A stretch of DNA of 64,000 bases from Escherichia phage SmurfNell (OR896824.1), one strand, 5' to 3'. Counted from the first letter of the stretch, positions 32,966 to 61,643 are shown. The notes: generated by a model from the letters alone, not told the origin. Translations and numbers: made by a program.

Positions 32966-32995
32966 ATTTATATAAATTGATGAGAGGGCTTTGAA

Positions 32996-48648: not shown

Positions 48649-48991
48649 AGTATATATTCTTGCAAATAGGGATCTGACGAAGATCCCTAAGAGAACAAAG
48701 ATCGGTATTAGTATGAATCCACATAATAGGATTCAAACACTAAACTTAGATAAGATAGTTTATCGAGGTTTTGACGATCTATATGTGTATGGAATCTATG
48801 AAACCCACAATCCTAGAGATCTAGAAGCCGCTGCACATATCTACTTTAAGAAATACCGCTGTAACTTAAAAGGATTCGAAGGATGCACAGAGTTCTTTGA
48901 TATTCACCCACAACTTGCAGAACGATTCCTATTAAATACAGGAGCCAAGAAGATTTACGAACCCAATATCAATCTCGAAGAGGATGTATAA
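48635..48991 (+). CDS. GIY-YIG-related (T5orf172-type) domain protein
   Basis: N-terminal YKVYILAN...KIGISMNPHNR resembles the GIY-YIG-like T5orf172 signature. Confidence 0.35.
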   Translation: MSLYKVYILANRDLTKIPKRTKIGISMNPHNRIQTLNLDKIVYRGFDDLYVYGIYETHNPRDLEAAAHIYFKKYRCNLKGFEGCTEFFDIHPQLAERFLLNTGAKKIYEPNINLEEDV

Positions 48992-49008
48992 ACGTTAACA
49001 AAATCTTC

Positions 49009-49038
49009 TTGACAACTCATTGTGGCACATGTTATAAT
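49009..49038 (+). promoter_or_regulatory. sigma70-type promoter (TTGACA-18-TATAAT) facing the repeat region
   Basis: Perfect hexamers; no ORF follows. Confidence 0.5.
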
Positions 49039-49078
49039 AATCTCATAGATTAAAAACAACTCTTGTTTTGAACTCTAG

Positions 49079-49190
49079 GGGCGATGATTATTACACTTAG
49101 TATTACGTCTATACGTTGCGACAGCACGAGTATAGATCTAATTACTAAGTCTTCCGTAATACTCACGCGCCCCACGGGTAAGCTCTCATG
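49079..49190 (+). other. large imperfect hairpin, candidate small RNA or processing/terminator structure
   Basis: Nested inverted repeats GGGGCG...AGTATTACG / CGTAATACT...CGCCCC and CTATAC/GTATAG, followed by T-rich tract. Confidence 0.3.
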
Positions 49191-49316
49191 AAATGGGGGC
49201 TACTTTACTTTTTATTTATATGAATATATTTAAAGGCAATATTAACGTTCAAGATGATACACCTGTTGCCGCTCATCTGCTAGGATGGCTCAACACTTTC
49301 TTCTAGACTCCTAAGT

Positions 49317-49420
49317 TTCTAGGAAAACTCTCGCCAACTCAGGCGGTTTTCATGTTCCTAGAAACTCCAGCAATAGGTGGTTTAATACAGGGCGGTTATA
49401 GGGAGGGCGGTTATTTCTAG
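49317..49420. repeat. short direct repeats (GGCGGTT-type and TTCTAGRAA-type)
   Basis: GGCGGTT at about 49333, 49390 and 49405; TTCTAGGA/TTCTAGAA at about 49317, 49356, 49415 and 49477. Confidence 0.45.
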
Positions 49421-49456
49421 GAGACATTTTTTGAAAACACATTTCTGGAAATTACT

Positions 49457-50059
49457 GTCGGATTTGCACACTGTGTTTCTAGAAATTTATGGTCGGATTT
49501 GCACATTGATAGGAGTCTCCAAAGTTTTTAGGAACACTGAAAATAGCAGCATTATTTCGGGCCGAAGGCCCATGTTTGCCTGAGTTTTTTAGAGTCCCAG
49601 GAATTTTCACTTGTCAAGCTATTTTGCCCCATTTTGCTAATAAAATTTCGCAGAATCTCCACTTATCTCAATTCTATCCAAAACATCCCACATTATCCCC
49701 AAAAACGCAGCAAACCGGTGCTGAAGCACCACTACAGCTGCACCCTCCATAGTTCCTCCCAAAAACCTCGTCGGATTCGCACTTCTCCCCAAACCCACAC
49801 AATCACACACCCTCTCATCGAAGTCACAAAAATATTCCTGAAACCATAAATCTGTCTCCTAGCAAACTCATGTCGTATTTGCACATATACGGCTGGATTT
49901 GTGCGCAGCACGAGTCTGCCCGAGTTTTTAGGAAAATTCATTGTCGGATTCGCACACTATAAAAATATTTGCCATCGGATTTGCACACTACCAAAAATTG
50001 TCGGATTCGCACATACACGCTGGCACGTAATCCGTGGGGGCAAATGTCGGATTTGCACA
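49457..50059 (+). repeat. iteron-like array: nine direct copies of 14 bp motif GTCGGATT(T/C)GCACA
   Basis: Copies near 49457, 49492, 49770, 49872, 49893 (degenerate), 49943, 49974, 50000 and 50046, all in the same orientation. Confidence 0.7.
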
Positions 50060-50095
50060 AAAGCGCAGGGCAAATAGAAAATGCCCTGCCTGCCG

Positions 50096-50258
50096 AAATG
50101 CAAATGATAATGAGATTGATTCGCATTTGAGAAGTTGAATGCGAATGCGAATGAGAATAGTTATCATTTGACTACCGGAATACGAATGAGAATGATTCGC
50201 ATTTAGGAAGGGAAACGCGAATGATAATGAGAATGATTCGCATTTAGGAAGCGAAGTG
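50096..50258 (+). repeat. three direct repeats of about 27 bp, GA(A/T)TGAGAATGATTCGCATTTAGGAAG-like
   Basis: Copies near 50108, 50184 and 50228; each contains inverted GCGAAT/ATTCGC arms. Confidence 0.6.
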
Positions 50259-50277
50259 AGAAACACTGTTATTTAAG

Positions 50278-50286
50278 TTATCCACA
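50278..50286 (+). promoter_or_regulatory. DnaA box (TTATCCACA)
   Basis: Exact match to the consensus DnaA box. Confidence 0.5.
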
Positions 50287-50368
50287 GGTTTATTAACAGC
50301 ACGATTTGACTTGACAAAATCCTAGCGATTTTGAGGCGTTTTCAACAGACTTATCAACAGGTTATTCT

Positions 50369-50386
50369 ACTGTATATTTATACAGT
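50369..50386. repeat. 18 bp palindrome ACTGTATATTTATACAGT (copy 1)
   Basis: Perfect dyad symmetry; core repeated at 54387. Confidence 0.6.
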
Positions 50387-50418
50387 ATTTCTGTGTAGTG
50401 AATAACTCTAATATAGCT

Positions 50419-50448
50419 CTAAAACGCTCTGTAACGCATTCTAACGCG
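50419..50448 (+). repeat. 30 bp direct repeat CTAAAACGCTCTGTAACGCATTCTAACGCG (copy 1)
   Basis: Near-identical copy at 54811-54842. Confidence 0.6.
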
Positions 50449-50533
50449 TTTATTTTTGGAGGAGGTATTTTAATAAGGGGAAATTTGTTTGCAGGCAGAA
50501 AAGGCGGGGCCAGATAGTTGCGCCCCGTTATTA

Positions 50534-50728
50534 TTAGTCTGGTAGTCGATGTGTGATCTTTTCGCTTTCGCCGTAGGAGTCTACCAAATGTTGATAGTAA
50601 CCATCGTTATCATAAATCACTTTATCATAATCGCCACGCTCCACCACTTGCCGATTTTCCCGCGTATCAGGCACAAAGAAAGTATCAACGGTAACAGTAG
50701 TTTTAGTTACAACAATTTTATCACTCAT
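50534..50728 (-). CDS. hypothetical protein
   Basis: 64 aa ORF, first gene of the minus-strand cassette. Confidence 0.4.
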   Translation of the reverse strand: MSDKIVVTKTTVTVDTFFVPDTRENRQVVERGDYDKVIYDNDGYYQHLVDSYGESEKITHRLPD

Positions 50729-50858
50729 AACGCCATCGCTCCTAGAATGAGAATGATTATCAATATCATTGTAAAGCCATTACCAAATCGTAAACGCTGG
50801 GAATGTTTCCCAGCGGTATTATTAGATTTATGGCTTTGTGTTTTTCGCCACCAGCTAT

Positions 50859-51071
50859 TCACGGTTTTAAATTCTCTATAGTTAATTTTGCGCGGATAGT
50901 AATTCCGTATAATTCGCCTCCCTTGTTTCTTACATCAGGTAGCCAGTCCCACAATTCAGGGTATCCGCTTAAAATTCCTAGCGATGCAAGATTAGCAATA
51001 AAACCGGCTATAGTAACCGCTTCCAGTGAAATAGTTACACGATTATTAATAACTAAAGTAAACTTTTTCAT
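50859..51071 (-). CDS. hypothetical protein
   Basis: 70 aa ORF. Confidence 0.4.
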   Translation of the reverse strand: MKKFTLVINNRVTISLEAVTIAGFIANLASLGILSGYPELWDWLPDVRNKGGELYGITIRAKLTIENLKP

Positions 51072-51412
51072 TGCGCCACCTTTCGAAACGCTGTTTCGAT
51101 ACTTTCAGCGGTTGATTGAATATACGCGCCTTTCATAATCAGGCGCTCCGTACATACTTTGCGGAAAATGTCAATAAATTCATTTTCATTTTCCGCTATT
51201 AACGCTTCCCCCATAACCTGAATATCGCATGAGTTAAAAGTAAGAAACTGAAAGGCAAGCTCGCGAGCGACAACGGCAGAAACTTTATAATGTGCTTTGC
51301 CTTCATAGATATTAACCACGCCTTTATAAACTGGTGAAAGCTGATTTAAATAGTTTGCTAACAATGCCGGACGGCAATTAGCAACAAAACGATTGCCCTC
51401 ATAAATAACCAT
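51068..51412 (-). CDS. hypothetical protein
   Basis: 114 aa ORF, translationally coupled to the downstream gene. Confidence 0.5.
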   Translation of the reverse strand: MVIYEGNRFVANCRPALLANYLNQLSPVYKGVVNIYEGKAHYKVSAVVARELAFQFLTFNSCDIQVMGEALIAENENEFIDIFRKVCTERLIMKGAYIQSTAESIETAFRKVAQ

Positions 51413-51521
51413 TTGTCAACCTCCTAAAGCTGGGAAAATATCATGTACATTTTTAAAACAAATGCGGCGACGGAACATACAACGCCAACGGTAGCAAACG
51501 CTAGAGCAATATATAAGGATC

Positions 51522-51734
51522 TCATAATACCCCACGAAACGCAGCGTAAAAAGTAGCAAAGTGTTTAACCGTTTCGGCTATCAAATTGCCACGCTTGTCA
51601 AATTTCTTTTCTGTAACACGGAAAGCGTTTTTGTTGCGTGCTACATATTCGATTTTACAATCTGGACGCTCGAACGTGTTAACATCCACCAGCTTAAAAC
51701 CTTTGTAACGGGCAAGGGAAACATTCTTTAACAT
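51522..51734 (-). CDS. hypothetical protein
   Basis: 70 aa basic ORF. Confidence 0.45.
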   Translation of the reverse strand: MLKNVSLARYKGFKLVDVNTFERPDCKIEYVARNKNAFRVTEKKFDKRGNLIAETVKHFATFYAAFRGVL

Positions 51735-51736
51735 TT

Positions 51737-51886
51737 TTATTCCCCTTTACCAGTCATACAGCCTAACAAGTAAGAAAACCCCGCGATACCTGCTCCAATA
51801 ATAACCACGTTAACGCCGAAAGCTATTACAAACAGTGATAAAATAGCGCCCAAGATACTAGCTAGAATAGATCGAAAAATAACCAT
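51737..51886 (-). CDS. small membrane peptide
   Basis: Hydrophobic ORF below the track cutoff, read from the minus strand. Confidence 0.3.
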   Translation of the reverse strand: MVIFRSILASILGAILSLFVIAFGVNVVIIGAGIAGFSYLLGCMTGKGE

Positions 51887-51932
51887 TTTATTAGCTCCTA
51901 GAAATTAGGGGATAATATACCCCCTTTATTAA

Positions 51933-52160
51933 TTACATTAAAACAATTTTTGCCGCTTGCTTTTTAGTGCAATGGTTAGCTTTCAATTCATCCAGCAAAA
52001 ATCCGGCGGTTTGCTGGTCAATCTTGTCATTGTCGTAAAGCCCCTGAATGGTAACATAAGTTTTACCTATGCCGAACTCAGAAACCATAACGCTGACAAT
52101 AGCGGGAACGGATACCCATTCCATACCGTTAAAAATTGCAGAAGATGATGAATGTACCAT
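51933..52160 (-). CDS. hypothetical protein
   Basis: 75 aa ORF. Confidence 0.4.
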   Translation of the reverse strand: MVHSSSSAIFNGMEWVSVPAIVSVMVSEFGIGKTYVTIQGLYDNDKIDQQTAGFLLDELKANHCTKKQAAKIVLM

Positions 52161-52209
52161 TTTAACGCCTCCTAGAAATCAGGGAAAATTTTCAACCCAC
52201 CGTTTCGGT

Positions 52210-52245
52210 GTAAAGGCATTATAACAAAAAAGGTCGCCATAATAG
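52210..52245 (-). terminator. rho-independent terminator (minus strand)
   Basis: AGGTCGCC...GGCGACCT hairpin with a T-run on the minus strand. Confidence 0.5.
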
Positions 52246-52267
52246 GCGACCTTTACAAAACTTTACA

Positions 52268-52762
52268 TTAGACTATTTCTAATGCTTCAACATTAAAACA
52301 GCGTTTTAGTTCTTTCTGTAAAACGGCATATTCATCCCAACGGGAATTATCAGGAATATAAACAAGCTGTTTTAATCGGTTTGCGTATAATAACGCCTTG
52401 TTACCAATTATTTCCGCGCCACCGTGTTTAATAATTAGTTTCATAACGGTATTAATAGGATCGCCACCATTTACATAAGTACCGGACTTACTCAATTGAT
52501 AATGATAAAGACTCGCATATACATTATCATTTTCAATCCATTCCCCTGTTTCTTCATCTTCTTCCCCATCGCTACCGAAACGAGAAGCATTATCATATGC
52601 GTGTTCGTTCGCGAAAGCGTCCAGATCACAGCCAGTGGGAACAAAATGTTCCTCCGTCCAGCCTTCCCCACAATAGCCAGTGTGACAATCAACTAAAACG
52701 ATCATATCGTGTTTAGCTTCACTCACACTTTCTAGCGAAAAGCCATATTTTTCTTCTGACAT
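52268..52762 (-). CDS. acidic hypothetical protein
   Basis: 164 aa, Asp/Glu-rich. Confidence 0.5.
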   Translation of the reverse strand: MSEEKYGFSLESVSEAKHDMIVLVDCHTGYCGEGWTEEHFVPTGCDLDAFANEHAYDNASRFGSDGEEDEETGEWIENDNVYASLYHYQLSKSGTYVNGGDPINTVMKLIIKHGGAEIIGNKALLYANRLKQLVYIPDNSRWDEYAVLQKELKRCFNVEALEIV

Positions 52763-52775
52763 AATTAGTCTCCTA

Positions 52776-53084
52776 TTAATTAGCAGGGAAATAAAGAGAA
52801 TTTGCTACACCGTAAAACCCTTTATTCAAGAAAATTACGTCATCACGGACTATTTCATCCACTCCATAATCCAGCAAAGTTTCACCTGCAAAAATACATA
52901 GCCAGCCATAACCACGATCAAAGAAAGCATGATAATTATTAGCGCTTTCTACATGTTCCCATAAAAAGGGACGCCCTTGCTTTTCCCATACAGGAATATT
53001 GATTTTATCATCTGAATAATTAACGTGGGGGCTATTCGGCATTTTTTCGGCTAATTGCGTCAACATGATTTGATTCAGTTGCAT
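52776..53084 (-). CDS. hypothetical protein
   Basis: 102 aa ORF. Confidence 0.5.
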   Translation of the reverse strand: MQLNQIMLTQLAEKMPNSPHVNYSDDKINIPVWEKQGRPFLWEHVESANNYHAFFDRGYGWLCIFAGETLLDYGVDEIVRDDVIFLNKGFYGVANSLYFPAN

Positions 53085-53135
53085 AATAAGTAGTCTCCTA
53101 ACAATTAACAGGGAAATAATCCCCGCTAGTAATTA

Positions 53136-54137
53136 TTATTCTGTTTCGGTGTTAGTGGTAAAGGTAGAAATATCGATACCTTTTACCATTTCGTCGATCA
53201 TTTCCGCAATATTGAAACTCTGTACCATTTCCAACATTGCCGCTTCCATTGCCGCGCCTGCTACCGCTTTCGCTTTCTGATTAGTCGGGGCGTACTGGTC
53301 AACCGCTACGCTTAACAGGTTAGTGATCACTACGCGACCAATCGGAGTATCAATATAACCTTTAATCATAAACGGCGCTTTTTTAGCCGCTACTTTTGTG
53401 ATTTGAGTCAATGCAATTTTACCCGCTTCCAGTTTAGCAGCGTTTACAACGGCAGATTTGTTAGCAGCAACGATAGAAGATACTTTAGACATAATATTTC
53501 CTTTATTTTCAGTAGTTTGCGCATTTGCGCTTGAAGTTTGAGAGTTTACAGCCTGTTTTGCTACGTTGTCAAGCGGTAAAAGTGTAAATCCAGCATTTGC
53601 AACGTTTGATTCATTCCCATACTCTAAATAATCGTTAGGGATCAACATGTTACCGCTAGCGCGTTCAAAGCACAATACGCCAGTTGTTTCGATTGCGTCA
53701 CTATCAGCACCTTTATAACTGGATGATAATTCACGCCAGATACTATTTAATAACGATCCGACACTATCCAATCTGATATTATTTATTTTTGTTGCTGTTA
53801 CCTGCTCCTTTTCTTGCACGTTATATAATCGCGCAATGTAACCACTATGAGACTCACTATAACCAACAATGATAAAATCAATATCAGTTCCCCGACTATT
53901 ACGGAAAATGTGATAATCACGGTTGAAAATTACTAGCGCCCTTGTCTGGTCTAGTAATAGCGTGAAATCATCGACTGAATAATGAGTATCATTATTATCT
54001 AAAATATCCTCGTGAATTTTTTCAACCATTGCGGCGGTGTGCTGAATACTTGCCGCACTACTACCATCTAGCAGGTTGCGCAAACTACCTTTAACAATAG
54101 TTGCGTTTGCTGGTACTGCAATTCTTACAGTAGACAT
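53136..54137 (-). CDS. hypothetical protein
   Basis: 333 aa ORF, first gene of the leftward unit. Confidence 0.55.
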   Translation of the reverse strand: MSTVRIAVPANATIVKGSLRNLLDGSSAASIQHTAAMVEKIHEDILDNNDTHYSVDDFTLLLDQTRALVIFNRDYHIFRNSRGTDIDFIIVGYSESHSGYIARLYNVQEKEQVTATKINNIRLDSVGSLLNSIWRELSSSYKGADSDAIETTGVLCFERASGNMLIPNDYLEYGNESNVANAGFTLLPLDNVAKQAVNSQTSSANAQTTENKGNIMSKVSSIVAANKSAVVNAAKLEAGKIALTQITKVAAKKAPFMIKGYIDTPIGRVVITNLLSVAVDQYAPTNQKAKAVAGAAMEAAMLEMVQSFNIAEMIDEMVKGIDISTFTTNTETE

Positions 54138-54386
54138 TTCTTTGTCTCCATCATTAATCGGTGAGTGAATGATATAGATAATTGTTCGCTAGGGGCAAGA
54201 AAAAAGAAAAGGTTTTTTATTCCTTGCCTAACGCTTGTTTTTATGCTAATCGCGCGTTTTCTATTTCTAGCTATCTGTAAGCGTACACAAGGCTTTATTA
54301 TAATAAGGGTAGCAGTGAGAAAACGCCGTGTAGCGTGTTCTAGGCCGCTTAAATTTGATTGCGGTTGTTACTGCTACCATTCTACC

Positions 54387-54402
54387 CTGTATATTTATAC
54401 AG
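54387..54402. repeat. palindrome CTGTATATTTATACAG (copy 2)
   Basis: Same dyad core as 50369-50386. Confidence 0.6.
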
Positions 54403-54424
54403 TAGGATAACCTGTATATAAGTC

Positions 54425-54433
54425 TGTGGATAA
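54425..54433 (-). promoter_or_regulatory. DnaA box (TGTGGATAA)
   Basis: Exact reverse complement of TTATCCACA. Confidence 0.5.
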
Positions 54434-54473
54434 GTCGCCAAATCGTCGCCTATTGCGTCAAGTTATTTTGTGC

Positions 54474-54482
54474 TGTGGATAA
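54474..54482 (-). promoter_or_regulatory. DnaA box (TGTGGATAA)
   Basis: Second exact copy 49 bp from the first; one-mismatch copy AGTGGATAA near 54758. Confidence 0.5.
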
Positions 54483-54810
54483 CTTTGTGAATAACCTAAA
54501 TGATAGTGGTTCTCACTTAGCCGATAGTTTCTTATAGTTATTATTTCTCTTTAATTTATATGTATATTATATAATATAAAATAGTTAGTTGGCTAATAGG
54601 TTTTTAGAGTATTAATAGTCTGCTAACTGTTTCGGCTGTTACAATCCACCAGCGTGATCATCATCCTAGCGATTATTAGTCTGCTAATGATCTGATACAC
54701 GTCCAGACTTATTTGTCAATGCAAAATAATAGCAGAAAATACTTTTTTGAAAAATCAAGTGGATAACTCATTAAATTTCATTTTTGCTTTTTGTATAAGT
54801 TATTAACAGC

Positions 54811-54842
54811 CCCTAAAACGCTCTGTAAGCGATTCTAAGCGC
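54811..54842 (+). repeat. 30 bp direct repeat (copy 2)
   Basis: CCTAAAACGCTCTGTAAGCGATTCTAAGCGCC, near-identical to 50419-50448. Confidence 0.6.
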
Positions 54843-55244
54843 CTCAAAGGAAAAGATAAGCAATCATAAGGGGTACACCGAGAAAACCTCACCACGAGGA
54901 TTTTAGATTTTGTCAAGTAGGCAAGAGCAGATATAAATGAAAAAATTACTTGCTAAAATGGTTGTTTTAGTGTTATTCGCGCGCTCGTTTCATTAAATTT
55001 AGTGCGCCGCTGGATGTTTGCGGAGACTGGTTTTCTTTACGTTTCTTTACAAAAATAAGGTTGCGCCCTTCTCGGTATTCTCCTATTATTTATCACGTAG
55101 GGCGGCAATGACGAACTACACGGCGGGGATAACAGCGATTGACAGTCTGTTTGACCTTTCAAAACCCTGCCATGCTCTTTAAAAATTAGGGAACATCTTA
55201 AAGCCTATCGGCGGTAAACTTAGATATTATAAGGAATCGACGAT

Positions 55245-55454
55245 ATGAAACAAACGCTTTTGATCACTGGCAAGCCTATCAAGTCACTTGATAGCAGAAC
55301 AAAAAATTTGTTGACAGTAGCGCAAAGATCGGTAAAATACCGATTCAAGCAATACAAGAAAGGTAAGCAGCAAGGTCTGGAAATGGTGTGGCGTAATATA
55401 ATGATTGATTTATATAACTCACATCAAATCGAAAAAAGTTTAAAAAACGCTTGA
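55245..55454 (+). CDS. hypothetical protein
   Basis: 69 aa basic ORF with AAGGAA RBS. Confidence 0.4.
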   Translation: MKQTLLITGKPIKSLDSRTKNLLTVAQRSVKYRFKQYKKGKQQGLEMVWRNIMIDLYNSHQIEKSLKNA

Positions 55455-55620
55455 CACGCTAGCCGATAGGTTTTAAGATGTTCCCCGTAGTAACTGCTCT
55501 TTAACAATTTGGAAAAACGGTAATGTTTAGGCTAACTCCTAGCGGATTATAATCTAATAGCGTTTCAAAGTATCGAGGCGCTATTGTGGAATAATCCCCC
55601 AATAAACCGGAGTATTAAAA

Positions 55621-55872
55621 ATGCAAAACGTTATTACCGCGCCGAAAGTAGGTCAATCTGTATTCATTCCTTTTGTTACTAAAACGGATGAATTAACCGG
55701 AAAAGTCGAACGTATTAAAGGTGCGGCGCTTGATCCTTTCGATAAAATCGAAGCGGTCTACGCGGAAACGGAACGTAGCAACAACGGCAAGCCTATTTAT
55801 AATGTTCGCGTTAAATCTGGCGACGTTGTAAAGATCATTCAGAAGGATGATAAATGGCAAGCCATAGCATAA
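55621..55872 (+). CDS. hypothetical protein
   Basis: 83 aa ORF. Confidence 0.45.
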   Translation: MQNVITAPKVGQSVFIPFVTKTDELTGKVERIKGAALDPFDKIEAVYAETERSNNGKPIYNVRVKSGDVVKIIQKDDKWQAIA

Positions 55873-55972
55873 ATTAGTGTTACTTTTATATTCCCCTGAA
55901 ATATGGGGAATATATGGATTAACATTAGTTAATCATAATCCCTTAATTAATAATTGAATGGAGTATTAAATT

Positions 55973-56389
55973 ATGTCTAACGTTAAAACCGAAAAAACCG
56001 CAAAATTCTCTTGGAGCGAAGAAAACACCGAAAAAGCTGTTTCTATGTATTCTGAAATGGTTGCTAAAAGCGGCATTGAATTTGCTAACAGTGACGGCCT
56101 AAAAGAAATTGCCGCCGCCGTTGGCGCTGCTAGTCCGGTGTCTGTACGTTCTAAACTGACAAGCGCAAAAGCGTACCAGAAAAGTGATAAACCGCGTAAA
56201 GTTGGCGGCGGGTCTAGTGTCCGTAAAGCTCACTATGTGCGCGTCATTGCTAAACATGCCATTGATAGCGGCATTGTAAAAGACGCTGACGATCTGGCAA
56301 GTCTTGAAAGTGCAAAACTGGAAACGCTGGACGCCGTAGCGCAATTGTTAGGCGTAGCGGAGGAAGTAAAACAGGCCGCAGGTGAATAA
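55973..56389 (+). CDS. hypothetical protein
   Basis: 138 aa ORF. Confidence 0.5.
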   Translation: MSNVKTEKTAKFSWSEENTEKAVSMYSEMVAKSGIEFANSDGLKEIAAAVGAASPVSVRSKLTSAKAYQKSDKPRKVGGGSSVRKAHYVRVIAKHAIDSGIVKDADDLASLESAKLETLDAVAQLLGVAEEVKQAAGE

Positions 56390-56429
56390 ATTTTAATTAG
56401 CGGGGAATATTCCCCGCTATAATTTCCCT

Positions 56430-56675
56430 TTGACCGGAGTTATTAAAATGATTTTCTTTCCTAGTGAAGCGTTTATTTTAGGTTTATTTATAGTTGCCGC
56501 TATATTTATATTTAATTACGGCAAATATATAATCTCTATTATCGGCATTAATTCAGCTTATGCCGCTGATATGTTTAAACGTCAAGCTAATAAACAAAAA
56601 TATCTGGCGATTATATTTTTAACGCTGGCTATTAGTTGCGGGTTTAGTTCTAGTCTTATGCCAATTCTAGAATAA
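56430..56675 (+). CDS. small membrane protein
   Basis: Two TM helices. Confidence 0.45.
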   Translation: MTGVIKMIFFPSEAFILGLFIVAAIFIFNYGKYIISIIGINSAYAADMFKRQANKQKYLAIIFLTLAISCGFSSSLMPILE

Positions 56676-56783
56676 TATTGCAAATTATAACGCCTTTTAA
56701 ATTGTCCTCACTTCAGGCAAGGCGTTATATTTGGCAATATTGCCAGTATTAATATTTATCCCTTTATAGGAGTTGATTTAGTT

Positions 56784-58448
56784 ATGAATATTTCCGCAGA
56801 AAAACAAGCTCAAATTCTGAAAATGGCCGCAGATTTTAACTTCTACGGTAAGCGTTTACGCGCTACTAAATTGGAAGTTTGCGACGATATTTCAAAAGCT
56901 GTTTATGATACGCCGAAACATTCGACCGCAATTTGTGACTGGCTGGAAGCAAATAAGCCAGCGAAACCTAAAGCGGCAAAAGCTGAAAAGGCGATTAAAA
57001 ATGATGATCGCCCCGAAGCGGCGGGAATTGTTTCTAGTACCGTTGAACAATGGGAAGTTAAATCCGGTCGCCGTTTTATTCTAACGTCGATTCAAAATAA
57101 TACTTTCCCGCATAAAAACTTTTTAGCAAGTCTGGAAAAATTCGCTGAATATTGCGGCGCTGAATTGCTGATTAGTAAATTCATTTATAATAAAAATGGA
57201 TTCCAGAACGGGGAAGGGGCAAACGGTATTAAATACGATCCCGCATTTGATAAATATGTTTGTGATAAAAACGTATTTTTAAATAACCGCCGCTTTGCTT
57301 TCATGGCTGAAATTAACGTTTTACCAACGGCAGATTATCCGCTTTCAGGATTCGCAGAAACCGCCACGGCTTTAAATATCGAAGGTCTGGCAATTGGTCA
57401 CGCAAAAATTACCGCTGAAAGTGTTCCCGCGCTTAAAGGTGAAGTAGTGCGCCGTATGTATTCAACCGGAACGGCTACGCTTAAAAACTACATTCAGCAG
57501 AAAGCAGGTCAAAAAGCTGAGGCTTTACATAATTACGGCGCTTTGCTGGTGGAGTTCGACGACGACGGAGAATTTTATTGCCGCCAGCTTGAAACAATGG
57601 ATGAAAGCGGAATGTTCTATGATTTGAATGTTTGCGCTATGCCTACCGGATGTTTTGAAACGTCCGATCATGTTCTAGGCTTGCAATATGGCGATATTCA
57701 CGCCGAAAAACTAGATGATGATTGCGCCGTCGCTTCATGGGCTAGTGAAAACAGCTTGCTTGATATTCTTAAACCGAAATATCAATTTATTCATGATGTG
57801 CATGATTTTACATCGCGTAACCATCACAACCGCGCTAGTGGTGTATTCCTTGCGAAACAATACGCCGCCGGACGTGATAAAGTTATTGATGATCTTATTG
57901 ATACGGGTCGCGTATTAGAGTCTATGGAGCGTGATTTCTCTCAAACAATCATTGTGGAATCTAACCATGATTTAGCTCTTTCACGCTGGCTTGATGATCG
58001 TAACGCTAACATTAAAGATGATCCCGCAAACGCGGAATTGTATCACCGTCTAAACGCTGCGATTTACGCCGCTATTGCTGAAAAAGATGATACCTTTAAC
58101 GTGCTAGATTACGCCTTGCGTAGTGTCGCAGGTTGCGAATTTAACGCTATTTTCCTGACTACTGACCAGTCATTTAAAATCGCTGGCATTGAATGCGGCG
58201 TACACGGTCACAATGGCATTAACGGCAGTCGGGGCAATCCTAAGCAGTTTAAAAAGTTGGGACGCCTTAACACTGGTCACACTCACACGGCTAGCATTTA
58301 CGGCGGCGTTTATACCGCTGGCGTGGCGGGGTCGCTTGATATGGGCTACAACGTGGGCGCGTCAAGCTGGACGCAAACGCATTTAATTACCTATGCAAAC
58401 GGGCAACGTACTTTGATTGATTTCAAAAACGGTAAATTCTTTGCATAA
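56784..58448 (+). CDS. A1-like pre-early protein with metallophosphoesterase motifs
   Basis: 554 aa; GDIH, SNHD and GHTH motifs; size and context resemble T5 A1 (recalled as about 556 aa). Confidence 0.5.
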   Translation: MNISAEKQAQILKMAADFNFYGKRLRATKLEVCDDISKAVYDTPKHSTAICDWLEANKPAKPKAAKAEKAIKNDDRPEAAGIVSSTVEQWEVKSGRRFILTSIQNNTFPHKNFLASLEKFAEYCGAELLISKFIYNKNGFQNGEGANGIKYDPAFDKYVCDKNVFLNNRRFAFMAEINVLPTADYPLSGFAETATALNIEGLAIGHAKITAESVPALKGEVVRRMYSTGTATLKNYIQQKAGQKAEALHNYGALLVEFDDDGEFYCRQLETMDESGMFYDLNVCAMPTGCFETSDHVLGLQYGDIHAEKLDDDCAVASWASENSLLDILKPKYQFIHDVHDFTSRNHHNRASGVFLAKQYAAGRDKVIDDLIDTGRVLESMERDFSQTIIVESNHDLALSRWLDDRNANIKDDPANAELYHRLNAAIYAAIAEKDDTFNVLDYALRSVAGCEFNAIFLTTDQSFKIAGIECGVHGHNGINGSRGNPKQFKKLGRLNTGHTHTASIYGGVYTAGVAGSLDMGYNVGASSWTQTHLITYANGQRTLIDFKNGKFFA

Positions 58449-58500
58449 TTAAATTTAATCGGCGGTTGAAATATACCGCCATTAATAAAAGGTTTATTAA

Positions 58501-58758
58501 ATGAATATTGTATTACCTAAAACACTGGATAAAAAGCAGTATATAACGCCGGATGATATGGAATGCGGCAAGGTATACCAATTCGATTATATGTTGGCTA
58601 GTCCGACGAATACAGGTTGTATTATTGCAGTTGATACCCGTGATAATGACGTATTAACGTTTAATGATTATTCTGACTTTATGGAATGGTTAGATGATCA
58701 AAGTATTACTAATAACGGCGAATTAACGCCGTATCAATTAACAATTGCAATTAAATAA
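58501..58758 (+). CDS. hypothetical protein
   Basis: 85 aa ORF. Confidence 0.45.
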   Translation: MNIVLPKTLDKKQYITPDDMECGKVYQFDYMLASPTNTGCIIAVDTRDNDVLTFNDYSDFMEWLDDQSITNNGELTPYQLTIAIK

Positions 58759-58794
58759 GTTAATCCCGTAATTAAATAATCTGGAGTCATAAAC

Positions 58795-59187
58795 ATGAAA
58801 AACCAAAACATTCCTTTTGATCGTGCTACTTCTTCCATCGTTCTAGTTTATTCTAATGGCGAACGTTATCACGTCGAGGCGGGGCAAGTTAATTTCGATT
58901 TGCTGAATTATAACGACGCTTTGCAGGTTACTACCTTTGCTTATGATACCGGCAAAGTGGCAAGCCATACAAAAGCAAAAGGCGTTTACGCTGATACTTT
59001 GACAGTGCAAACAATTATTATTGATGCGCTTAAATCCGGTCTAGCGTTTGCAGTTGTTAAGCCGTGTCCGGTCTGCAATCCCGAAGCTAGCGCGATGGTT
59101 TACACTTGCGCGGGGATTCGCTCTAGCGTACATGGTGAAGATCTTAGCTTTATCGCCGATGCTCTCGCTTTTGGTCTGGCGTTCTAA
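58795..59187 (+). CDS. hypothetical pre-early protein
   Basis: 130 aa ORF between the A1-like and HAD phosphatase genes. Confidence 0.45.
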   Translation: MKNQNIPFDRATSSIVLVYSNGERYHVEAGQVNFDLLNYNDALQVTTFAYDTGKVASHTKAKGVYADTLTVQTIIIDALKSGLAFAVVKPCPVCNPEASAMVYTCAGIRSSVHGEDLSFIADALAFGLAF

Positions 59188-59274
59188 TAGTTAATTGAAC
59201 ATTGCCAGCTAATCTAATATAATTAGCTGGCAAGATTGAATTAACCTAAATCCCTTAAATGGAGAATGTAACAA

Positions 59275-60009
59275 ATGAATCAAGTCAATATGAATATTAC
59301 CCGCACTTTCCCGCATATTTCCCGCGTTATGATTTGGGATTTAGACGGTACAATCATTAACTCAATGCACCGTGTCGGGCCTTGTTTTGATGATAATGGG
59401 AATTTAGATTTAAATAAATATTCCCGCGAAGCCTGCAAGCATGATTTAATTATGCAGGATTCTTTATTGCCATTGGTTGAATATATGCGCCAATGTATGA
59501 ATGATCCCAATACCTTAAACCTTATTTGTACCGCTCGCTTAATGGGTAAATCTGATTATTATTTCTTGCGTAAACAAAGTCTAAGAGGGCGCGGAAATAG
59601 TAATATTCGCGTATTTTCCCGCGATACATTACATAAATACTTTGAAGCTGGTAAGGTTAGCGAAATATATCACAGCAAAGACGCTGTATATAAGTCTTAT
59701 TACTTTGAACTGTTTAAACAGCTATATCCTAACGCTGATTTTACGATGATTGATGATCATAAAGGTGTATTATCAGCGGCGGCAAGTGCTGGATTTAAAA
59801 CGCTGGACGCTCAAGCCGTTAACGATATCCTATCAATCGGCGTAACATTGATCGGTGAAACCTTTATTGATGAATCGCTTGATGATGATAACGATTATCA
59901 ATTCCTAGCCGAACGTTTAAAAATGTGTTGGGAAGGTATGACCGAGGAAGAACGCGAGGAATATAGTACCACACCTCAACAATTCATTGATAAATTAAAA
60001 GTTGCCTAA
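59275..60009 (+). CDS. HAD-superfamily 5'-deoxynucleotidase-like (Dmp-like)
   Basis: HAD motif I IWDLDGTII near the N-terminus; 244 aa. Confidence 0.5.
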   Translation: MNQVNMNITRTFPHISRVMIWDLDGTIINSMHRVGPCFDDNGNLDLNKYSREACKHDLIMQDSLLPLVEYMRQCMNDPNTLNLICTARLMGKSDYYFLRKQSLRGRGNSNIRVFSRDTLHKYFEAGKVSEIYHSKDAVYKSYYFELFKQLYPNADFTMIDDHKGVLSAAASAGFKTLDAQAVNDILSIGVTLIGETFIDESLDDDNDYQFLAERLKMCWEGMTEEEREEYSTTPQQFIDKLKVA

Positions 60010-60166
60010 CAATTAAAAATAAAATAGTCACACTGTGTAATGATAACATGGTGTGACTATTAGCTTGCTAAGTAAGGGGCGGTAATGAGACTCATTCTCA
60101 TCTAGGGAACCTCTGGGCACACCTTCATGTGTAATCTTATGAGATTTGGCAAAAGTCAAATTAGCG

Positions 60167-60463
60167 CTATTTACGGACTGACTGCTTGAGAATAGACTGC
60201 CATAGAGGGTCAGTCTTAACAAGATTATTGATGTACTCAATAGCTTCATCAAATCTCATAAATCCTTCTGGAATTTCCGAAGACTTAGGAAAAACTTGTA
60301 ACATCTCTTGGGTGATACCCATCTTTTCAAGTTCTTCTTGAGTTATCTCAAACTTACCGAAAAACCGCCCGAATTCTTTCATGAGCTTCTCCTGTCTACC
60401 GGCTTGTCTCCTGATTCTGACATACGAAATCTCCTCCGCGATGCCCGAGATCCATCCGACCAC
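60167..60463 (-). CDS. hypothetical protein
   Basis: 98 aa ORF in a GC-rich patch. Confidence 0.35.
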   Translation of the reverse strand: MVGWISGIAEEISYVRIRRQAGRQEKLMKEFGRFFGKFEITQEELEKMGITQEMLQVFPKSSEIPEGFMRFDEAIEYINNLVKTDPLWQSILKQSVRK

Positions 60464-60616
60464 TCTCGCTCAAACTCCTCCCGTTTCTCCGCAAACCTCC
60501 GCTCCCTTTCCGAAAGCTCCCGCGATACTCCCGCAACATATTCACGATGCTTGTTAATAGCCCCGAGTGTTCCGAAGATTCCCGCAAGTACCCCGATAAT
60601 GAAGATAGCTACAAAG

Positions 60617-60811
60617 CTAAACATCTAATTCCCTCTCAAGTTGGTGAATACGTGCCCGATCATTACATTGGGAGTCCAGTAACTTATCCATATTAATATT
60701 AAGCTGGGTGACTTTATCCTCTAGCCGCTGTATACGGTTGCGATGTGAAGTCATATATCCAACAATCCAGACAAGCCATACTACAAGTGTAATAAATCCT
60801 AACCAATCCAT
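60617..60811 (-). CDS. small membrane protein
   Basis: N-terminal TM helix WLGFITLVVWLVWIVGY. Confidence 0.4.
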   Translation of the reverse strand: MDWLGFITLVVWLVWIVGYMTSHRNRIQRLEDKVTQLNINMDKLLDSQCNDRARIHQLERELDV

Positions 60812-60987
60812 TATTTGTCTCCCCGCAGCTTACGTTCTATACGGGCTAAGTGGTTATCTAGAATGCACTGCCCGATAATTACCACAACTAGTAAAGCAAT
60901 AATCACTACTTCCATTATAACCACCCCGCCATAGCTGCTAACCAAAAGAGTACAAAGATAAAGAATAACACAGTCCCGAATCCGAAA

Positions 60988-61302
60988 CTATTTATCCAAC
61001 TTTCGTACACTTCCCCGCGTCTGTTCTTTCTTCTGTTGTCGTCTGACATCTCTTTGCTTCTCCTGTAGTCCTGGTATTTGGAATATCCTAGCAATTGCAC
61101 GAACCATTATGACCGTCCCGATAAGATCCATTACTTCATCGAAGCCGGATTCTTCTAGTAAGAAGGATGTTCCCATCACATCTTCCATTGTATCTTCTAT
61201 GACGTCTTGAATGATTTCGTTAATTGCATCATGTATTGCTTTAGTCCTGGGATCTATTTCAAAGTTAACAGGTTCCTGAAAGGACTTTTCTTCATCTTGC
61301 AT
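60988..61302 (-). CDS. acidic hypothetical protein
   Basis: 104 aa ORF. Confidence 0.4.
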   Translation of the reverse strand: MQDEEKSFQEPVNFEIDPRTKAIHDAINEIIQDVIEDTMEDVMGTSFLLEESGFDEVMDLIGTVIMVRAIARIFQIPGLQEKQRDVRRQQKKEQTRGSVRKLDK

Positions 61303-61376: not shown

Positions 61377-61643
61377 TTACAAGTGACCAGATTGTTCTAG
61401 TTTAAATTTGCAATCGCCATATTTGAGATCAAACTGTGACAAATCCCACCACCCAAACTTAGTGCGTAACTGAGTTTTAGGGAATCGGTAGCCCACAGTA
61501 CGTGCTTCTCGAATATCTAAAGCATAGTGTTCTTCACCAACATGACCATAAGACTTCACATATGCCTTACAAAATGGCTCGGGAGCTGGCACACAACCCG
61601 TCAACACTACTGCTGCAACTACGATGGCTAGTAACTTTTTCAT
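61377..61643 (-). CDS. Llp-like lipoprotein (candidate receptor-blocking superinfection-exclusion protein)
   Basis: Signal peptide with lipobox AVVLTGC; divergently transcribed from the adjacent large tail-protein gene. Confidence 0.5.
   Translation of the reverse strand: MKKLLAIVVAAVVLTGCVPAPEPFCKAYVKSYGHVGEEHYALDIREARTVGYRFPKTQLRTKFGWWDLSQFDLKYGDCKFKLEQSGHL

What the first reader, a model, noticed from the sequence alone, without database searches (positions are those of the whole stretch)
49000..60650. Compositionally distinct block with pre-early-type genes: probable terminal-repeat/first-step-transfer region joined to late genes
From about 50.3 to 60.6 kb codon usage shifts to CpG-rich codons, gene orientation changes, and the genes resemble T5 pre-early functions (A1-like phosphoesterase 56784..58448, HAD deoxynucleotidase-like 59275..60009, as I recall them). 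The block is flanked by early lysis genes on one side and an Llp-like lipoprotein plus receptor-binding-type protein on the other. In a linear T5-type genome that adjacency is expected only if the window spans a collapsed terminal repeat or a circularised assembly junction.
Basis: partly seen in the sequence, partly recalled or inferred. Interest (0 to 1): 0.5.

Follow-up and report, generated by a model that had tools for sequence, protein, structure and literature searches.

The report
Collapsed T5-type terminal repeat block
This block is the single assembled copy of the roughly 10.5-kb terminal repeat of a T5-like phage, the first DNA injected and the carrier of the host-takeover genes; that is ordinary for this family, but its CpG-rich, partly host-like sequence signature and an unannotated structured RNA beside it deserve a closer look.

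Summary
The window comes from a T5-like phage (Demerecviridae, Epseptimavirus-like), about 94-95% identical to its nearest public relatives, and it runs opposite to the T5 map. [quoted passage not shown] It holds dmp, A1 and A2, two divergent pre-early operons and the repeat-rich injection-stop region. Its inner edge maps onto the terminal-repeat (TR) ends of T5 and Stitch, and its outer edge onto their left terminus. Unique early DNA lies on one side. The right-end unique DNA (small ORFs, a Cor/Llp-type lipoprotein, a receptor-binding protein) lies on the other.

The composition claim is real but concerns dinucleotides, not GC. CpG o/e is 1.38 inside versus 0.69-0.82 outside; GpC is 1.51 versus 0.97-1.10. 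The same step occurs at the repeat edge in four other genera. It is not classical translational optimisation, and its cause is unresolved. The lysis cassette lies about 10.5 kb away, not at the flank.

Side findings:
- CCWGG is purged from the repeat.
- Chi sites are enriched in the repeat.
- A conserved consensus-promoter-driven structured RNA candidate lies at 49045-49215.

The parts
48635..48991 (+). Last ORF of the early-gene block: a homing/HNH-endonuclease-like ORF, absent at this spot in Stitch, Seabear and SuperGirl. This is the left flank, outside the repeat.
   Evidence: PHROG phrog_18411, E=1.9e-48. The three relatives show an alignment gap here.
49009..49038 (+). Perfect extended -10 sigma-70 consensus promoter (TTGACA, 18-nt spacer that ends in TGT, TATAAT), reading towards the repeat.
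   Evidence: 12/12 consensus match with TG. Conserved in Stitch, Seabear, SuperGirl, T5, Klebsiella Roth50, Proteus Stubb and IMG/VR contigs.
49045..49215 (+). Candidate structured small RNA in unique DNA about 375-545 bp outside the repeat. It has a 5' hairpin, a long irregular central hairpin and a terminator-like 3' hairpin followed by a T-run.
   Evidence: MFE -58 vs -33.6+-3.6 kcal/mol, z=-6.7. The same architecture appears in 20 distinct relatives, z -3.6 to -7.7, and the sense strand is more stable in 20/20. Seven pairs show compensatory changes. No Rfam hit.
49590..60118 (.). Single copy of the T5-type long direct terminal repeat (about 10.5 kb), i.e. the first-step-transfer / pre-early region. 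It is also the CpG/GpC-rich compositional island.
   Evidence: Boundaries by homology to the T5 and Stitch repeats. Composition. Single copy in the window.
49456..50059 (+). Seven copies of TGTCGGATTYGCACA (Davison's DRD-type repeats), straddling the inner repeat boundary. Part of the injection-stop (iss) repeat region.
   Evidence: the repeat finder family D2. Conserved in relatives. Matches the description of T5 Repeat Region 3.
50062..50063 (+). Homologue of the T5 major single-strand interruption (AAAA^GCGC).
   Evidence: The nick annotated in T5 at 9748/9749 lies in the same conserved sequence. Seabear's PhageTerm 'repeat end' maps exactly here.
50101..50385 (.). iss core. It holds palindromic and direct AATGAGAATGATTCGCATT repeats, the DnaA-box pair TTATCCACAggtTTATTAACA (from 50278), and one arm (50330-50385) of a 4-kb-spaced inverted repeat (IRD'-spacer-IRC').
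   Evidence: Repeat families D1, I4, I1 and I10. DnaA-box matches. Davison 2020 description.
50534..54137 (-). Right-arm pre-early operon, about 9-10 small ORFs of unknown function (T5.011-T5.017 homologues, including DUF7566 at 53136-54137).
   Evidence: ORF list. Annotation of relatives. Pfam and PHROG hits.
54138..55244 (.). Central non-coding region between the two divergent pre-early operons. It holds the second inverted-repeat arm (54387-54442) and DnaA boxes at 54425, 54474 and 54486.
55245..60009 (+). Left-arm pre-early operon: DUF7416 (55245-55454), DUF7177 (55621-55872), A2 DNA-binding protein (55973-56389), small membrane protein (56448-56675), A1 (56784-58448), two unknown ORFs, and dmp (59275-60009).
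   Evidence: A1 is 90% and Dmp 88% identical to the T5 proteins. PHROG and Pfam hits. Annotation of relatives.
60119..61302 (-). Unique right-end DNA: small ORFs homologous to T5.159-T5.162, plus about 280 bp absent from T5.
   Evidence: Alignment to T5 110.8-111.5 kb. SuperGirl annotation. PHROGs of unknown function.
61377..61643 (-). Lipoprotein-type superinfection-exclusion protein (Cor-like, a functional counterpart of T5 Llp).
   Evidence: phrog_1119, E=1.2e-23. Weak lipoprotein attachment-site hit. The syntenic SuperGirl gene is annotated 'superinfection exclusion protein'.
61727..63508 (+). Receptor-binding tail protein (pb5 position).
   Evidence: phrog_4815, E=4e-278. SuperGirl and EH2 annotations.

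Best explanation
Window ~49590-60118 is the one assembled copy of the long direct terminal repeat of a T5-like (Epseptimavirus-type) phage.

How it works (established T5 biology; inferred for this phage):
- In the virion this ~10.5-kb segment sits at both ends of a linear genome.
- The left copy enters the cell first (first-step transfer). Entry halts at the repeat-rich injection-stop region (window ~49.5-50.4 kb).
- Unmodified host RNA polymerase then transcribes two divergent pre-early operons.
- Their products include A1 and A2, needed to bring in the rest of the DNA; A1 is also needed for host DNA degradation and shut-off. They also include Dmp, a 5'-deoxynucleotidase.

Why the flanks look odd (shown by homology):
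- The two copies were merged by assembly, or the molecule sequenced was a concatemer. The repeat is therefore flanked by the leftmost unique early genes on one side and the rightmost unique genes (small ORFs, Cor/Llp-type lipoprotein, receptor-binding protein) on the other.

Composition (observation shown; cause inferred, my confidence in the cause about 0.4):
- The block is a dinucleotide island at unchanged GC: CpG, GpC and AA/TT are up; AG/CT and GA/TC are down.
- Most likely this is the only phage DNA and mRNA that must work and survive in an uncompromised host. It therefore evolves under its own selection: a purge of defence sites such as CCWGG, and an oligonucleotide and synonymous-codon usage closer to that of host genes.
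For: - Family assignment: 548 phage records match the block, the best at 94-95% identity, all Demerecviridae.
- Boundaries: window 60118 aligns to Stitch position 1 and window 49587 to Stitch 9982, its annotated repeat end. Window 49592 aligns to the last base of the T5 record, and ~60119 to the start of the T5 right repeat. The T5 and Stitch flanks continue on both sides as predicted.
- Gene content and order match T5: dmp, A1 (90% aa) and A2 on one arm, T5.011-017 homologues on the other.
- iss anatomy matches Davison's description: DRD repeats, paired DnaA boxes 3 bp apart, IRD'/IRC' versus IRC/IRD, and the nick-site homologue.
- Many public T5-like records show the same collapsed layout. 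In 151 records one place covers at least 80% of the query, and SuperGirl and SB10 align across the whole of it, both junctions included.
- Composition: Karlin delta* between the repeat and the early region is 0.186. 10.5-kb chunks within the early region differ from it by only 0.014-0.047.
- CpG excess appears in all three codon contexts and more weakly in non-coding DNA.
- The same step occurs at the repeat edge in T5, Klebsiella Roth50, Proteus Stubb and Vibrio AG74.
- About one third of CpGs in A1, A2 and dmp have turned over between T5 and this phage while the totals stay equal, 194 vs 197.
- The repeat's RSCU correlates with E. coli genes at r=0.53, against 0.22 for early genes.
- CCWGG is 1 observed vs 8-12 expected in the repeat. 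It is similarly purged in all five genera, while in four of them non-repeat DNA is near expectation; Stubb's is also low.
Against: - No reads are available, so duplication at both ends (twofold depth) and the physical termini are inferred from homologues only.
- One relative's PhageTerm-predicted repeat end (Seabear, 8522) maps 470 bp inside my inner boundary. It coincides with the conserved nick site, so I take it as a nick pile-up.
- On the cause of the composition: CAI with highly-expressed-gene weights (0.297 vs 0.299) and tAI with host tRNA gene copies (0.300 vs 0.301) do not differ between repeat and early genes. CTG is not enriched. Translation efficiency therefore does not explain it.
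- CpG and GpC overshoot E. coli values (1.38/1.51 vs 1.11/1.27), so simple host mimicry is incomplete.
- Site avoidance does not by itself predict CpG gain.
Confidence: 0.9

Rival explanations
1. The CpG-rich codon shift reflects translational adaptation. Pre-early genes are translated before the phage's own ~30 tRNAs are made, so they use codons served by host tRNAs. Early and late genes lean on phage tRNAs.
For: - Codons matched by phage tRNAs and rare in E. coli are less used in the repeat: AGA 0.09 vs 0.19, CTA 0.14 vs 0.20, GGA 0.16 vs 0.26, AAG 0.20 vs 0.37, CCA 0.16 vs 0.36.
- The fraction of codons Watson-Crick-cognate to phage tRNAs is lower than in early genes (0.437 vs 0.486, p=0.003).
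- RSCU is closer to E. coli (r 0.53 vs 0.22).
Against: - CAI (Sharp-Li weights, from memory) and tAI (host tRNA copy numbers, from memory) are equal for repeat and early genes.
- The other non-repeat gene set has the same phage-tRNA-cognate fraction as the repeat (0.444).
- TTA, CAA and TCA move the wrong way, and CTG is not enriched.
- CpG is also raised at codon 3-1 junctions and, more weakly, in non-coding DNA.
Confidence: 0.2
2. The block is a horizontally acquired island of foreign origin, and its odd composition is a relic of the donor.
For: Sharp compositional edges and a large signature distance from the rest of the genome (delta* 0.186).
Against: - The block carries family-core genes (dmp, A1, A2).
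- The same compositional step is found in five genera whose A1 proteins have diverged to 31-42% identity.
- CpGs turn over between T5 and this phage at constant totals. The signature is therefore actively maintained, not a decaying relic.
Confidence: 0.04
3. The adjacency is genuine in the packaged DNA. On this reading the phage has no fixed long terminal repeat (for example headful packaging with permutation), and the window shows the true gene order.
For: The sequence alone cannot exclude it. Many public records are deposited in this layout.
Against: - T5, Stitch and EscoHU1 are deposited with both repeat copies. Seabear, Sepoy and Stubb carry PhageTerm-predicted repeats at the homologous place.
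- All cis elements of two-step transfer are conserved here.
Confidence: 0.03
4. The distinct dinucleotide signature comes from a mutation or repair regime peculiar to the repeat, such as frequent recombination and heteroduplex repair between the two copies, rather than from selection.
For: - The signature is strongest at synonymous positions, where both mutation bias and weak selection show.
- It is confined to the duplicated segment in five genera.
- Non-coding DNA is also shifted.
Against: - GC content and GC3 are unchanged (0.36 vs 0.34), unlike GC-biased conversion.
- The CpG rise starts ~200-300 bp inside the repeat boundary rather than at it. The 49401-50000 window, which lies mostly inside the repeat, is still at 0.78.
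- No known enterobacterial or T5 process makes CpG and GpC at the expense of AG/GA.
Confidence: 0.15

Closest known systems
Bacteriophage T5 left/right terminal repeat (FST DNA, pre-early region, iss); AY543070 positions 1-10219 and 111532-121750
   Same: - Same gene set and order: dmp, A1, A2 on one arm and T5.011-017 homologues on the other.
- Same divergent operons.
- Same iss repeat architecture with paired DnaA boxes and a nick site.
- Same flanks: T5.018-type early genes on one side; T5.159-162, then the lipoprotein and RBP, on the other.
- Same CpG/GpC step (1.35/1.57 vs 0.70/1.13).
   Different: - About 75-80% nucleotide identity only.
- No hegG HNH gene in the central region.
- An extra HNH-like ORF at the early flank, and about 280 bp extra at the right-end flank.
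- The lipoprotein and RBP have no nucleotide similarity to T5 llp/oad.
- Four Chi sites rather than two.
- A different apical sequence in the candidate sRNA.
Epseptimavirus terminal repeats: Salmonella phage Stitch (KM236244, repeat 1-9982), EH2-EH5, SuperGirl, SB13
   Same: - 92-96% identity over the block, collinear.
- Identical A1 protein in Stitch (tblastn), and 99.9% nucleotide identity of A1 to EH2-EH5.
- The boundaries map base-for-base at the outer end.
   Different: - Indels in the right arm: extra ORFs at 50859-51071 and 52776-53084 relative to Stitch.
- A different variable segment at 49040-49250.
- No public record above ~95% identity over 24 kb, so this is a distinct genome.
Collapsed long direct terminal repeats in short-read phage assemblies (PhageTerm 'DTR long' class)
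   Same: One repeat copy joined to both unique ends, as in most 108-115-kb T5-like GenBank records.
   Different: Nothing distinguishable from the sequence. Depth and read-start data are needed.
Chi clustering near the terminal redundancy of phage P1 (Subramaniam and Smith)
   Same: Chi octamers are concentrated in the terminally repeated DNA and oriented towards the DNA ends. This would favour RecBCD-RecA recombination between the repeats, or attenuate end degradation.
   Different: - Only 4 sites here against 50 in P1.
- T5 is reported to neutralise RecBCD through pre-early functions.
- The enrichment is not repeat-specific in the Klebsiella relative and is absent in the Vibrio relative.

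Membership tests
T5-type long direct terminal repeat / first-step-transfer region | Carries dmp, A1 and A2 homologues in the T5 order, transcribed towards the left terminus | tested here: met
   Dmp 88%, A1 90% aa identity to T5. A2 matches phrog_1725 and is annotated A2 in relatives. Order is as in T5.
T5-type long direct terminal repeat / first-step-transfer region | Two divergent pre-early operons separated by a non-coding repeat region | tested here: met
   ORFs on - at 50534-54137 and on + at 55245-60009, with 1.1 kb of non-coding DNA between them.
T5-type long direct terminal repeat / first-step-transfer region | Injection-stop region: DRD repeats, IRD'-spacer-IRC' paired with IRC-spacer-IRD, DnaA boxes in pairs 3 bp apart, major nick site | tested here: met
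   compared with Davison 2020 and the T5 annotation.
T5-type long direct terminal repeat / first-step-transfer region | Edges coincide with the termini and repeat ends of relatives deposited with both repeat copies | tested here: met
   Window 60118 = Stitch position 1. Window 49587 and 49592 = the Stitch and T5 repeat ends.
T5-type long direct terminal repeat / first-step-transfer region | Physically present at both ends of the virion DNA (twofold depth, fixed ends) | not testable with these tools
   No reads are available. The window holds a single copy.
T5-type long direct terminal repeat / first-step-transfer region | Two-step DNA transfer that halts at about 8% of the genome | not testable with these tools
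   Needs a blender-shear or time-resolved injection experiment.
A1 protein (proposed metallophosphoesterase) | Full-length homology to T5 A1 | tested here: met
   500/556 identical residues. phrog_1745, E=6.7e-244.
A1 protein (proposed metallophosphoesterase) | Recognisable calcineurin-like phosphoesterase domain | tested here: inconclusive
   No Pfam hit at E<=0.01. Motifs GDIHAE, ESNHD, GHNG and GHTH are visible in the alignment. One relative is annotated as a metallophosphoesterase. No structure was predicted.
Dmp 5'-deoxynucleotidase (HAD-like) | Full-length homology to T5 Dmp | tested here: met
   215/244 identical residues.
Dmp 5'-deoxynucleotidase (HAD-like) | HAD-superfamily domain | tested here: inconclusive
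   No Pfam hit at E<=0.01. The DxDxT-type motif DLDGT is present at residues 22-26. PHROG places the protein in a family labelled 'polynucleotide kinase'.
T5 Llp lytic-conversion lipoprotein | Sequence homology to T5 Llp | tested here: not met
   No nucleotide alignment to T5 llp. The ORF instead matches Cor superinfection-exclusion phrog_1119. It shares Llp's position, size class and lipoprotein signal, so it is a positional and functional counterpart rather than a family member.
pb5-type receptor-binding tail protein | Homology to the phage receptor-binding tail protein family, and synteny next to the lipoprotein gene and terminase | tested here: met
   phrog_4815, E=4e-278. Synteny with EH2 oad and the SuperGirl RBP. 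No nucleotide similarity to T5 oad itself.
Any Rfam RNA family (for the candidate sRNA at 49045-49215) | Covariance-model match | tested here: not met
   The only hit in 48800-61800 at E<=1 is an unrelated sub-threshold STnc320 match at 52211-52263.

The most novel reading that the evidence does not exclude
Three linked readings remain open.
1. The first-step-transfer DNA of all T5-like phages is a selectively maintained 'signature island'. It is CpG/GpC-rich, partly host-like in oligonucleotide use, purged of CCWGG and other defence sites, and carries end-facing Chi sites. The reason would be that it is the only part of the genome that meets an intact host.
2. This has not been described before.
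3. The unique DNA that enters next encodes a previously unannotated, family-wide small RNA. It is driven by a consensus promoter, highly structured, and has a hypervariable central hairpin.
Probability: 0.45. Interest if true: 0.55.

Novelty: new member of a known kind. Interest (0 to 1): 0.3.

Why it matters
For annotation, the point is practical. The window comes from an assembly with the terminal repeat collapsed. The true genome is therefore about 10.5 kb longer than the contig. Its physical left end lies near window 60118. The odd 'late genes next to pre-early genes' adjacency is not a rearrangement.

For biology, the T5 first-step-transfer region is where several old questions sit:
- how injection stops and restarts;
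- how the phage spares its own DNA while destroying the host's;
- why only this segment is vulnerable to restriction and CRISPR.

A family-wide compositional regime confined to this segment would give concrete handles on those questions through recoding experiments. So would a specific CCWGG purge and end-facing Chi sites, through tests on EcoRII and RecBCD hosts. The candidate sRNA at the leading edge of the second-step DNA can be tested by sRNA deletion. None of these side findings is established here beyond sequence statistics.

Tried and rejected
1. GC content as the discriminator: rejected. GC is the same inside and outside.
2. Classical translational optimisation: rejected. CAI and tAI are equal for repeat and early genes.
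3. A single repeated binding motif behind the CpG excess: rejected. No 5-8-mer stands out beyond lower-order composition, with z<=4.4.
4. Foreign-origin island: rejected on family-wide conservation and CpG turnover.
5. Type I-E PAM (AAG) avoidance as the driver: only 25% depletion, which is too weak.
6. Pfam domain support for the 'phosphoesterase' and 'HAD' labels: none at E<=0.01.
7. Seabear's PhageTerm boundary as the true inner repeat end: rejected, because it falls on the conserved nick site.
8. 'Lysis genes flank the block': not so. The cassette lies at 35.8-39.1 kb.
9. Literature: no mention of a compositional shift, Chi sites or an RNA gene at this locus in Davison 2020, the BF23 paper, the 2026 T5 pre-early preprint or two T5-like genome papers. 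Davison 2015 and Wang 2005 are not held, so prior description cannot be excluded.
10. A short ORF (MIIT...) inside the candidate sRNA: it is not conserved across sequence types, so a coding role is unlikely.
11. My 'late' gene class is mislabelled. Window 1-4000 holds NrdD and Sir2-like nucleotide-metabolism genes on the minus strand. Treat that class only as 'other non-repeat genes'.

Full report
**Identity of the window**

A megablast of 49000-60650 finds 548 phage records. The best are at 94-95% identity: Salmonella phages SB13 and KKP 3953, and Escherichia phage SuperGirl. The records retrieved for inspection are Demerecviridae. No record exceeds about 95% identity over 30000-54000, so this is a distinct Epseptimavirus-like genome.

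The window runs opposite to the T5 map. A block of + strand early genes carries a cluster of 30 tRNA genes at 18.8-31.1 kb and ends at 48991. The finding's block follows. Beyond it lie small - strand ORFs, a lipoprotein gene and a receptor-binding protein gene.

**What the block is**

T5 (AY543070) is annotated as follows:
- left repeat at 1-10219 and right repeat at 111532-121750;
- dmp, A1 and A2 transcribed towards the left end;
- a rightward operon, T5.011-017;
- an injection-stop signal at 9140-10149;
- a major nick at 9748/9749.

Stitch carries an annotated repeat at 1-9982. Pairwise BLAST gives these correspondences:

| Reference position | Window position |
|---|---|
| Stitch position 1 (left terminus) | 60118 |
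| Stitch 9982 (repeat end) | 49587 |
| Last base of the T5 record (end of right repeat) | 49592 |
| First base of the T5 right repeat | ~60119 |

The T5 left-repeat alignment continues into unique early DNA down to window 49241. The T5 right-end unique DNA (T5.159-162) aligns at 60424-61099. The repeat therefore spans about 49590-60118 (10,529 bp). It occurs once in the window.

It is flanked on one side by what follows the left repeat in T5, and on the other by what precedes the right repeat. A linear virion genome cannot hold that order. A collapsed or circularised assembly, or a replicative concatemer, does. Many public T5-like records are deposited the same way: one place covers at least 80% of the query in 151 records, and SuperGirl and SB10 align across both junctions. 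Depth and physical ends remain untested.

**Anatomy of the repeat**

- Left arm (+): DUF7416, DUF7177, A2 (55973-56389), a small membrane protein, A1 (56784-58448), two unknown ORFs, and Dmp (59275-60009). A1 is 90% and Dmp 88% identical in protein to T5.
- Right arm (-): nine or ten small ORFs at 50534-54137, including DUF7566.
- Domain support: Pfam finds no phosphoesterase or HAD domain in A1 or Dmp at E<=0.01. Only motifs visible in the alignments support those labels: GDIHAE, ESNHD and GHTH in A1, and DLDGT in Dmp.
- Non-coding DNA at 49.45-50.4 kb reproduces Davison's Repeat Region 3. It holds:
  - seven TGTCGGATTYGCACA repeats;
  - palindromic AATGAGAATGATTCGCATT units;
  - a DnaA-box pair, TTATCCACAggtTTATTAACA;
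  - a 56-nt arm (50330-50385) inverted with respect to 54387-54442;
  - the homologue of the T5 nick (AAAA^GCGC at 50062/50063).
- Seabear's PhageTerm 'repeat end' maps exactly onto that nick, so it is probably a nick signal rather than the repeat end.

**Flanks**

The ORFs next to the inner edge are early genes of unknown function plus an HNH-type ORF (48635-48991). That ORF is absent at this spot in the three relatives aligned. The lysis genes are not at the flank, so that part of the finding is imprecise:
- holin at 38030-38686;
- endolysin at 38683-39096;
- spanin at 35779-36228.

On the other side, the 88-aa lipoprotein-type ORF (61377-61643) belongs to the Cor superinfection-exclusion PHROG. 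It has no similarity to T5 llp, so it is a counterpart rather than a homologue. The 593-aa ORF is a receptor-binding tail protein.

**The compositional claim**

GC is flat, but dinucleotides are not:

| Measure | Repeat | Early region | Other flanks |
|---|---|---|---|
| CpG o/e | 1.38 | 0.82 | 0.69 |
| GpC o/e | 1.51 | 1.10 | 0.97 |
| AA/TT | 1.19 | 1.04 | 0.96 |
| AG/CT | 0.81 | 1.11 | 1.08 |
| GA/TC | 0.82 | 1.04 | 1.03 |

- The Karlin distance between the repeat and the early region is 0.186. 10.5-kb chunks of the early region differ from it by only 0.014-0.047.
- The 2-kb windows inside and outside the block do not overlap in CpG o/e.
- The CpG excess appears at codon positions 2-3 (1.35 vs 0.54), 3-1 (1.50 vs 0.77) and 1-2 (1.53 vs 1.25). 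It is weaker in non-coding DNA (1.15-1.24 vs 0.87).
- CGC, GCG, CCG, ACG and GGC codons rise 2-3 fold.

The same step sits at the repeat edge in four other genera:

| Phage | CpG o/e in repeat | CpG o/e outside |
|---|---|---|
| T5 | 1.35 | 0.70 |
| Klebsiella phage Roth50 | 1.1-1.46 | 0.76-1.08 |
| Proteus phage Stubb | 1.0-1.25 | 0.5-0.84 |
| Vibrio phage AG74 | 1.0-1.16 | 0.4-0.98 |

The A1 proteins of Stubb and AG74 are only 42% and 31% identical to this one. Between T5 and this phage, a third of the CpGs in A1, A2 and dmp have moved while the totals stay equal, 194 vs 197. The signature is therefore maintained by an ongoing process. It is not a relic of a recent transfer.

**What causes it**

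- Measured against 50 kb of E. coli K-12, the repeat is nearer the host than the rest of the phage. Delta* is 0.114 versus 0.142 and 0.175. RSCU correlates at r=0.53 versus 0.22.
- It is not classical translational optimisation. CAI with highly-expressed-gene weights is 0.297 vs 0.299, and tAI with host tRNA gene copies is 0.300 vs 0.301. Both are equal for repeat and early genes, and CTG is not enriched. Both weight tables came from my memory.
- No long motif accounts for it.
- My best reading is selection peculiar to the only DNA and mRNA that must function in an unmodified host. My confidence in that is about 0.4. A repeat-specific mutation or repair regime and a tRNA-timing effect remain as rivals.

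**Defence-site content**

- CCWGG occurs once in the repeat, against 8-12 expected from the repeat's own Markov models. Outside, 61 are observed against 71-78 expected.
- The same purge holds in all five genera. In four of them non-repeat DNA is near expectation; Stubb's non-repeat DNA is also low, at 8 against ~20 expected.
- GAATTC and EcoKI sites are absent from the repeat, and CAGAG is 3-18 fold rarer than outside.
- This fits published work showing that only sites in the FST region expose T5-like phages to restriction, and that their DNA escapes Dcm methylation.

**Chi**

- GCTGGTGG occurs four times in the repeat, against 0.10-0.23 expected. None of 3000 simulations at each Markov order reached four.
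- The other 53 kb hold two copies, against 0.6-2.0 expected.
- The copy 2.6 kb from the left terminus is oriented for RecBCD entering at that end.
- The three copies at 1.3, 2.1 and 5.1 kb from the inner edge are oriented for RecBCD entering there. In the right repeat copy, that edge is the right terminus.
- T5 has two Chi sites in the repeat, and Stitch and EH2 have four. In the Klebsiella relative the density is no higher in the repeat than outside, and the Vibrio relative has none in the repeat.
- P1 offers a precedent for Chi clustering at terminal redundancy.

**A candidate RNA gene**

- Directly after the last early ORF lies a perfect extended -10 promoter (49009-49038, +).
- The next ~170 nt fold far better than shuffles (z=-6.7). 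The best of 80 control windows across the window reaches only z=-4.6.
- The fold has a 5' hairpin, a ~100-nt central hairpin and a terminator-like hairpin with a T-run.
- T5, Stitch, SuperGirl and IMG/VR T5-like contigs give 20 distinct sequences of at least six sequence types. The apical hairpin sequences cannot be aligned between types, yet all fold strongly (z -3.6 to -7.7).
- The sense strand is the more stable in 20/20 sequences, with 4-9 G.U pairs each.
- Seven consensus pairs show compensatory changes.
- The same promoter and position recur in Klebsiella Roth50 and Proteus Stubb.
- Rfam has no match. No inspected record annotates an RNA or promoter here, although some call small hypothetical ORFs in the interval. 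The site lies beyond Davison's Repeat Region 3.
- Function is unknown. The locus lies on the first DNA to enter in the second transfer step and is transcribed towards the repeat.

**Verdict**

The finding is real and correctly interpreted, and the thing itself is ordinary: the terminal repeat and pre-early region of a T5-like phage, collapsed in assembly. Three things are worth carrying forward. The first is the family-wide dinucleotide island, whose cause is open. The second is the CCWGG purge and Chi placement. The third is the candidate sRNA.

Noticed in passing
window 49009-49215 (+): A perfect extended -10 sigma-70 promoter is followed by a ~170-nt strongly structured RNA candidate (z=-6.7) with a terminator-like 3' hairpin. 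The same architecture and position occur in T5, Stitch, SuperGirl, IMG/VR T5-like contigs, Klebsiella Roth50 and Proteus Stubb, with a hypervariable central hairpin. There is no Rfam match and no RNA or promoter annotation in the public records inspected.
   Followed up: partly
window 50848(-), 51686(-), 54646(-), 57545(+): Four Chi octamers (GCTGGTGG) lie in the 10.5-kb repeat, against 0.1-0.23 expected. Each is oriented to be recognised by RecBCD entering from the nearer physical genome end. T5 has 2, and Stitch and EH2 have 4. In the Klebsiella relative the density is no higher in the repeat than outside, and the Vibrio relative has none there.
   Followed up: partly
window 49590-60118, and the repeats of L005, L009, L010 and L012: CCWGG (the Dcm/EcoRII site) is purged from the terminal repeat beyond what its own composition predicts: 1 vs 8-12 expected here, and 0-3 vs 3-15 in four other genera. 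In four of the five genera, non-repeat DNA is near expectation. GAATTC and EcoKI sites are absent, and CAGAG is strongly depleted.
   Followed up: partly
window 50062/50063 (+); L008 (Seabear) 8522: The homologue of the T5 major nick (AAAA^GCGC) is conserved here. Seabear's PhageTerm-predicted 'repeat end' falls exactly on it, so that deposited repeat length (8522 bp) is probably about 0.5 kb too short.
   Followed up: partly
window 48635-48991 (+): A homing/HNH-endonuclease-like ORF sits between the last early gene and the candidate sRNA promoter. It is absent at this position in Stitch, Seabear and SuperGirl.
   Followed up: partly
window 60028-60252 (-): A 74-aa TTG-start ORF spans the outer repeat boundary at 60118. 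SuperGirl annotates a 'putative homing endonuclease' at the corresponding place. It could be intact only at the right-repeat junction or in concatemers. It has no PHROG or Pfam hit, and about 280 bp here are absent from T5.
   Followed up: partly
window 50101-50286, 50747-50765, 59885-59902, 60083-60101: The iss palindromic units (AATGAGAATGATTCGCATT) resemble the Fur-box consensus by eye: 14/19 matches to GATAATGATAATCATTATC at 50104-50122. Related copies lie near the left terminus. This was not tested statistically.
   Followed up: no
window 18790-31100 (+): A cluster of 30 tRNA genes covers all 20 amino acids. It includes Arg-TCT, Leu-TAG, Gly-TCC and Lys-CTT, which read codons that are rare in E. 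coli.
   Followed up: partly
window 32801-33000 (+): This is the most structured of 80 control 200-nt windows (z=-4.6), just downstream of the tRNA cluster. It may be another structured RNA.
   Followed up: no
window 508-3989 (-): Sir2-like and NrdD-like genes lie on the minus strand at the start of the window. My 'late' gene class in the codon analyses is therefore a mix of non-repeat genes, not true late genes.
   Followed up: yes
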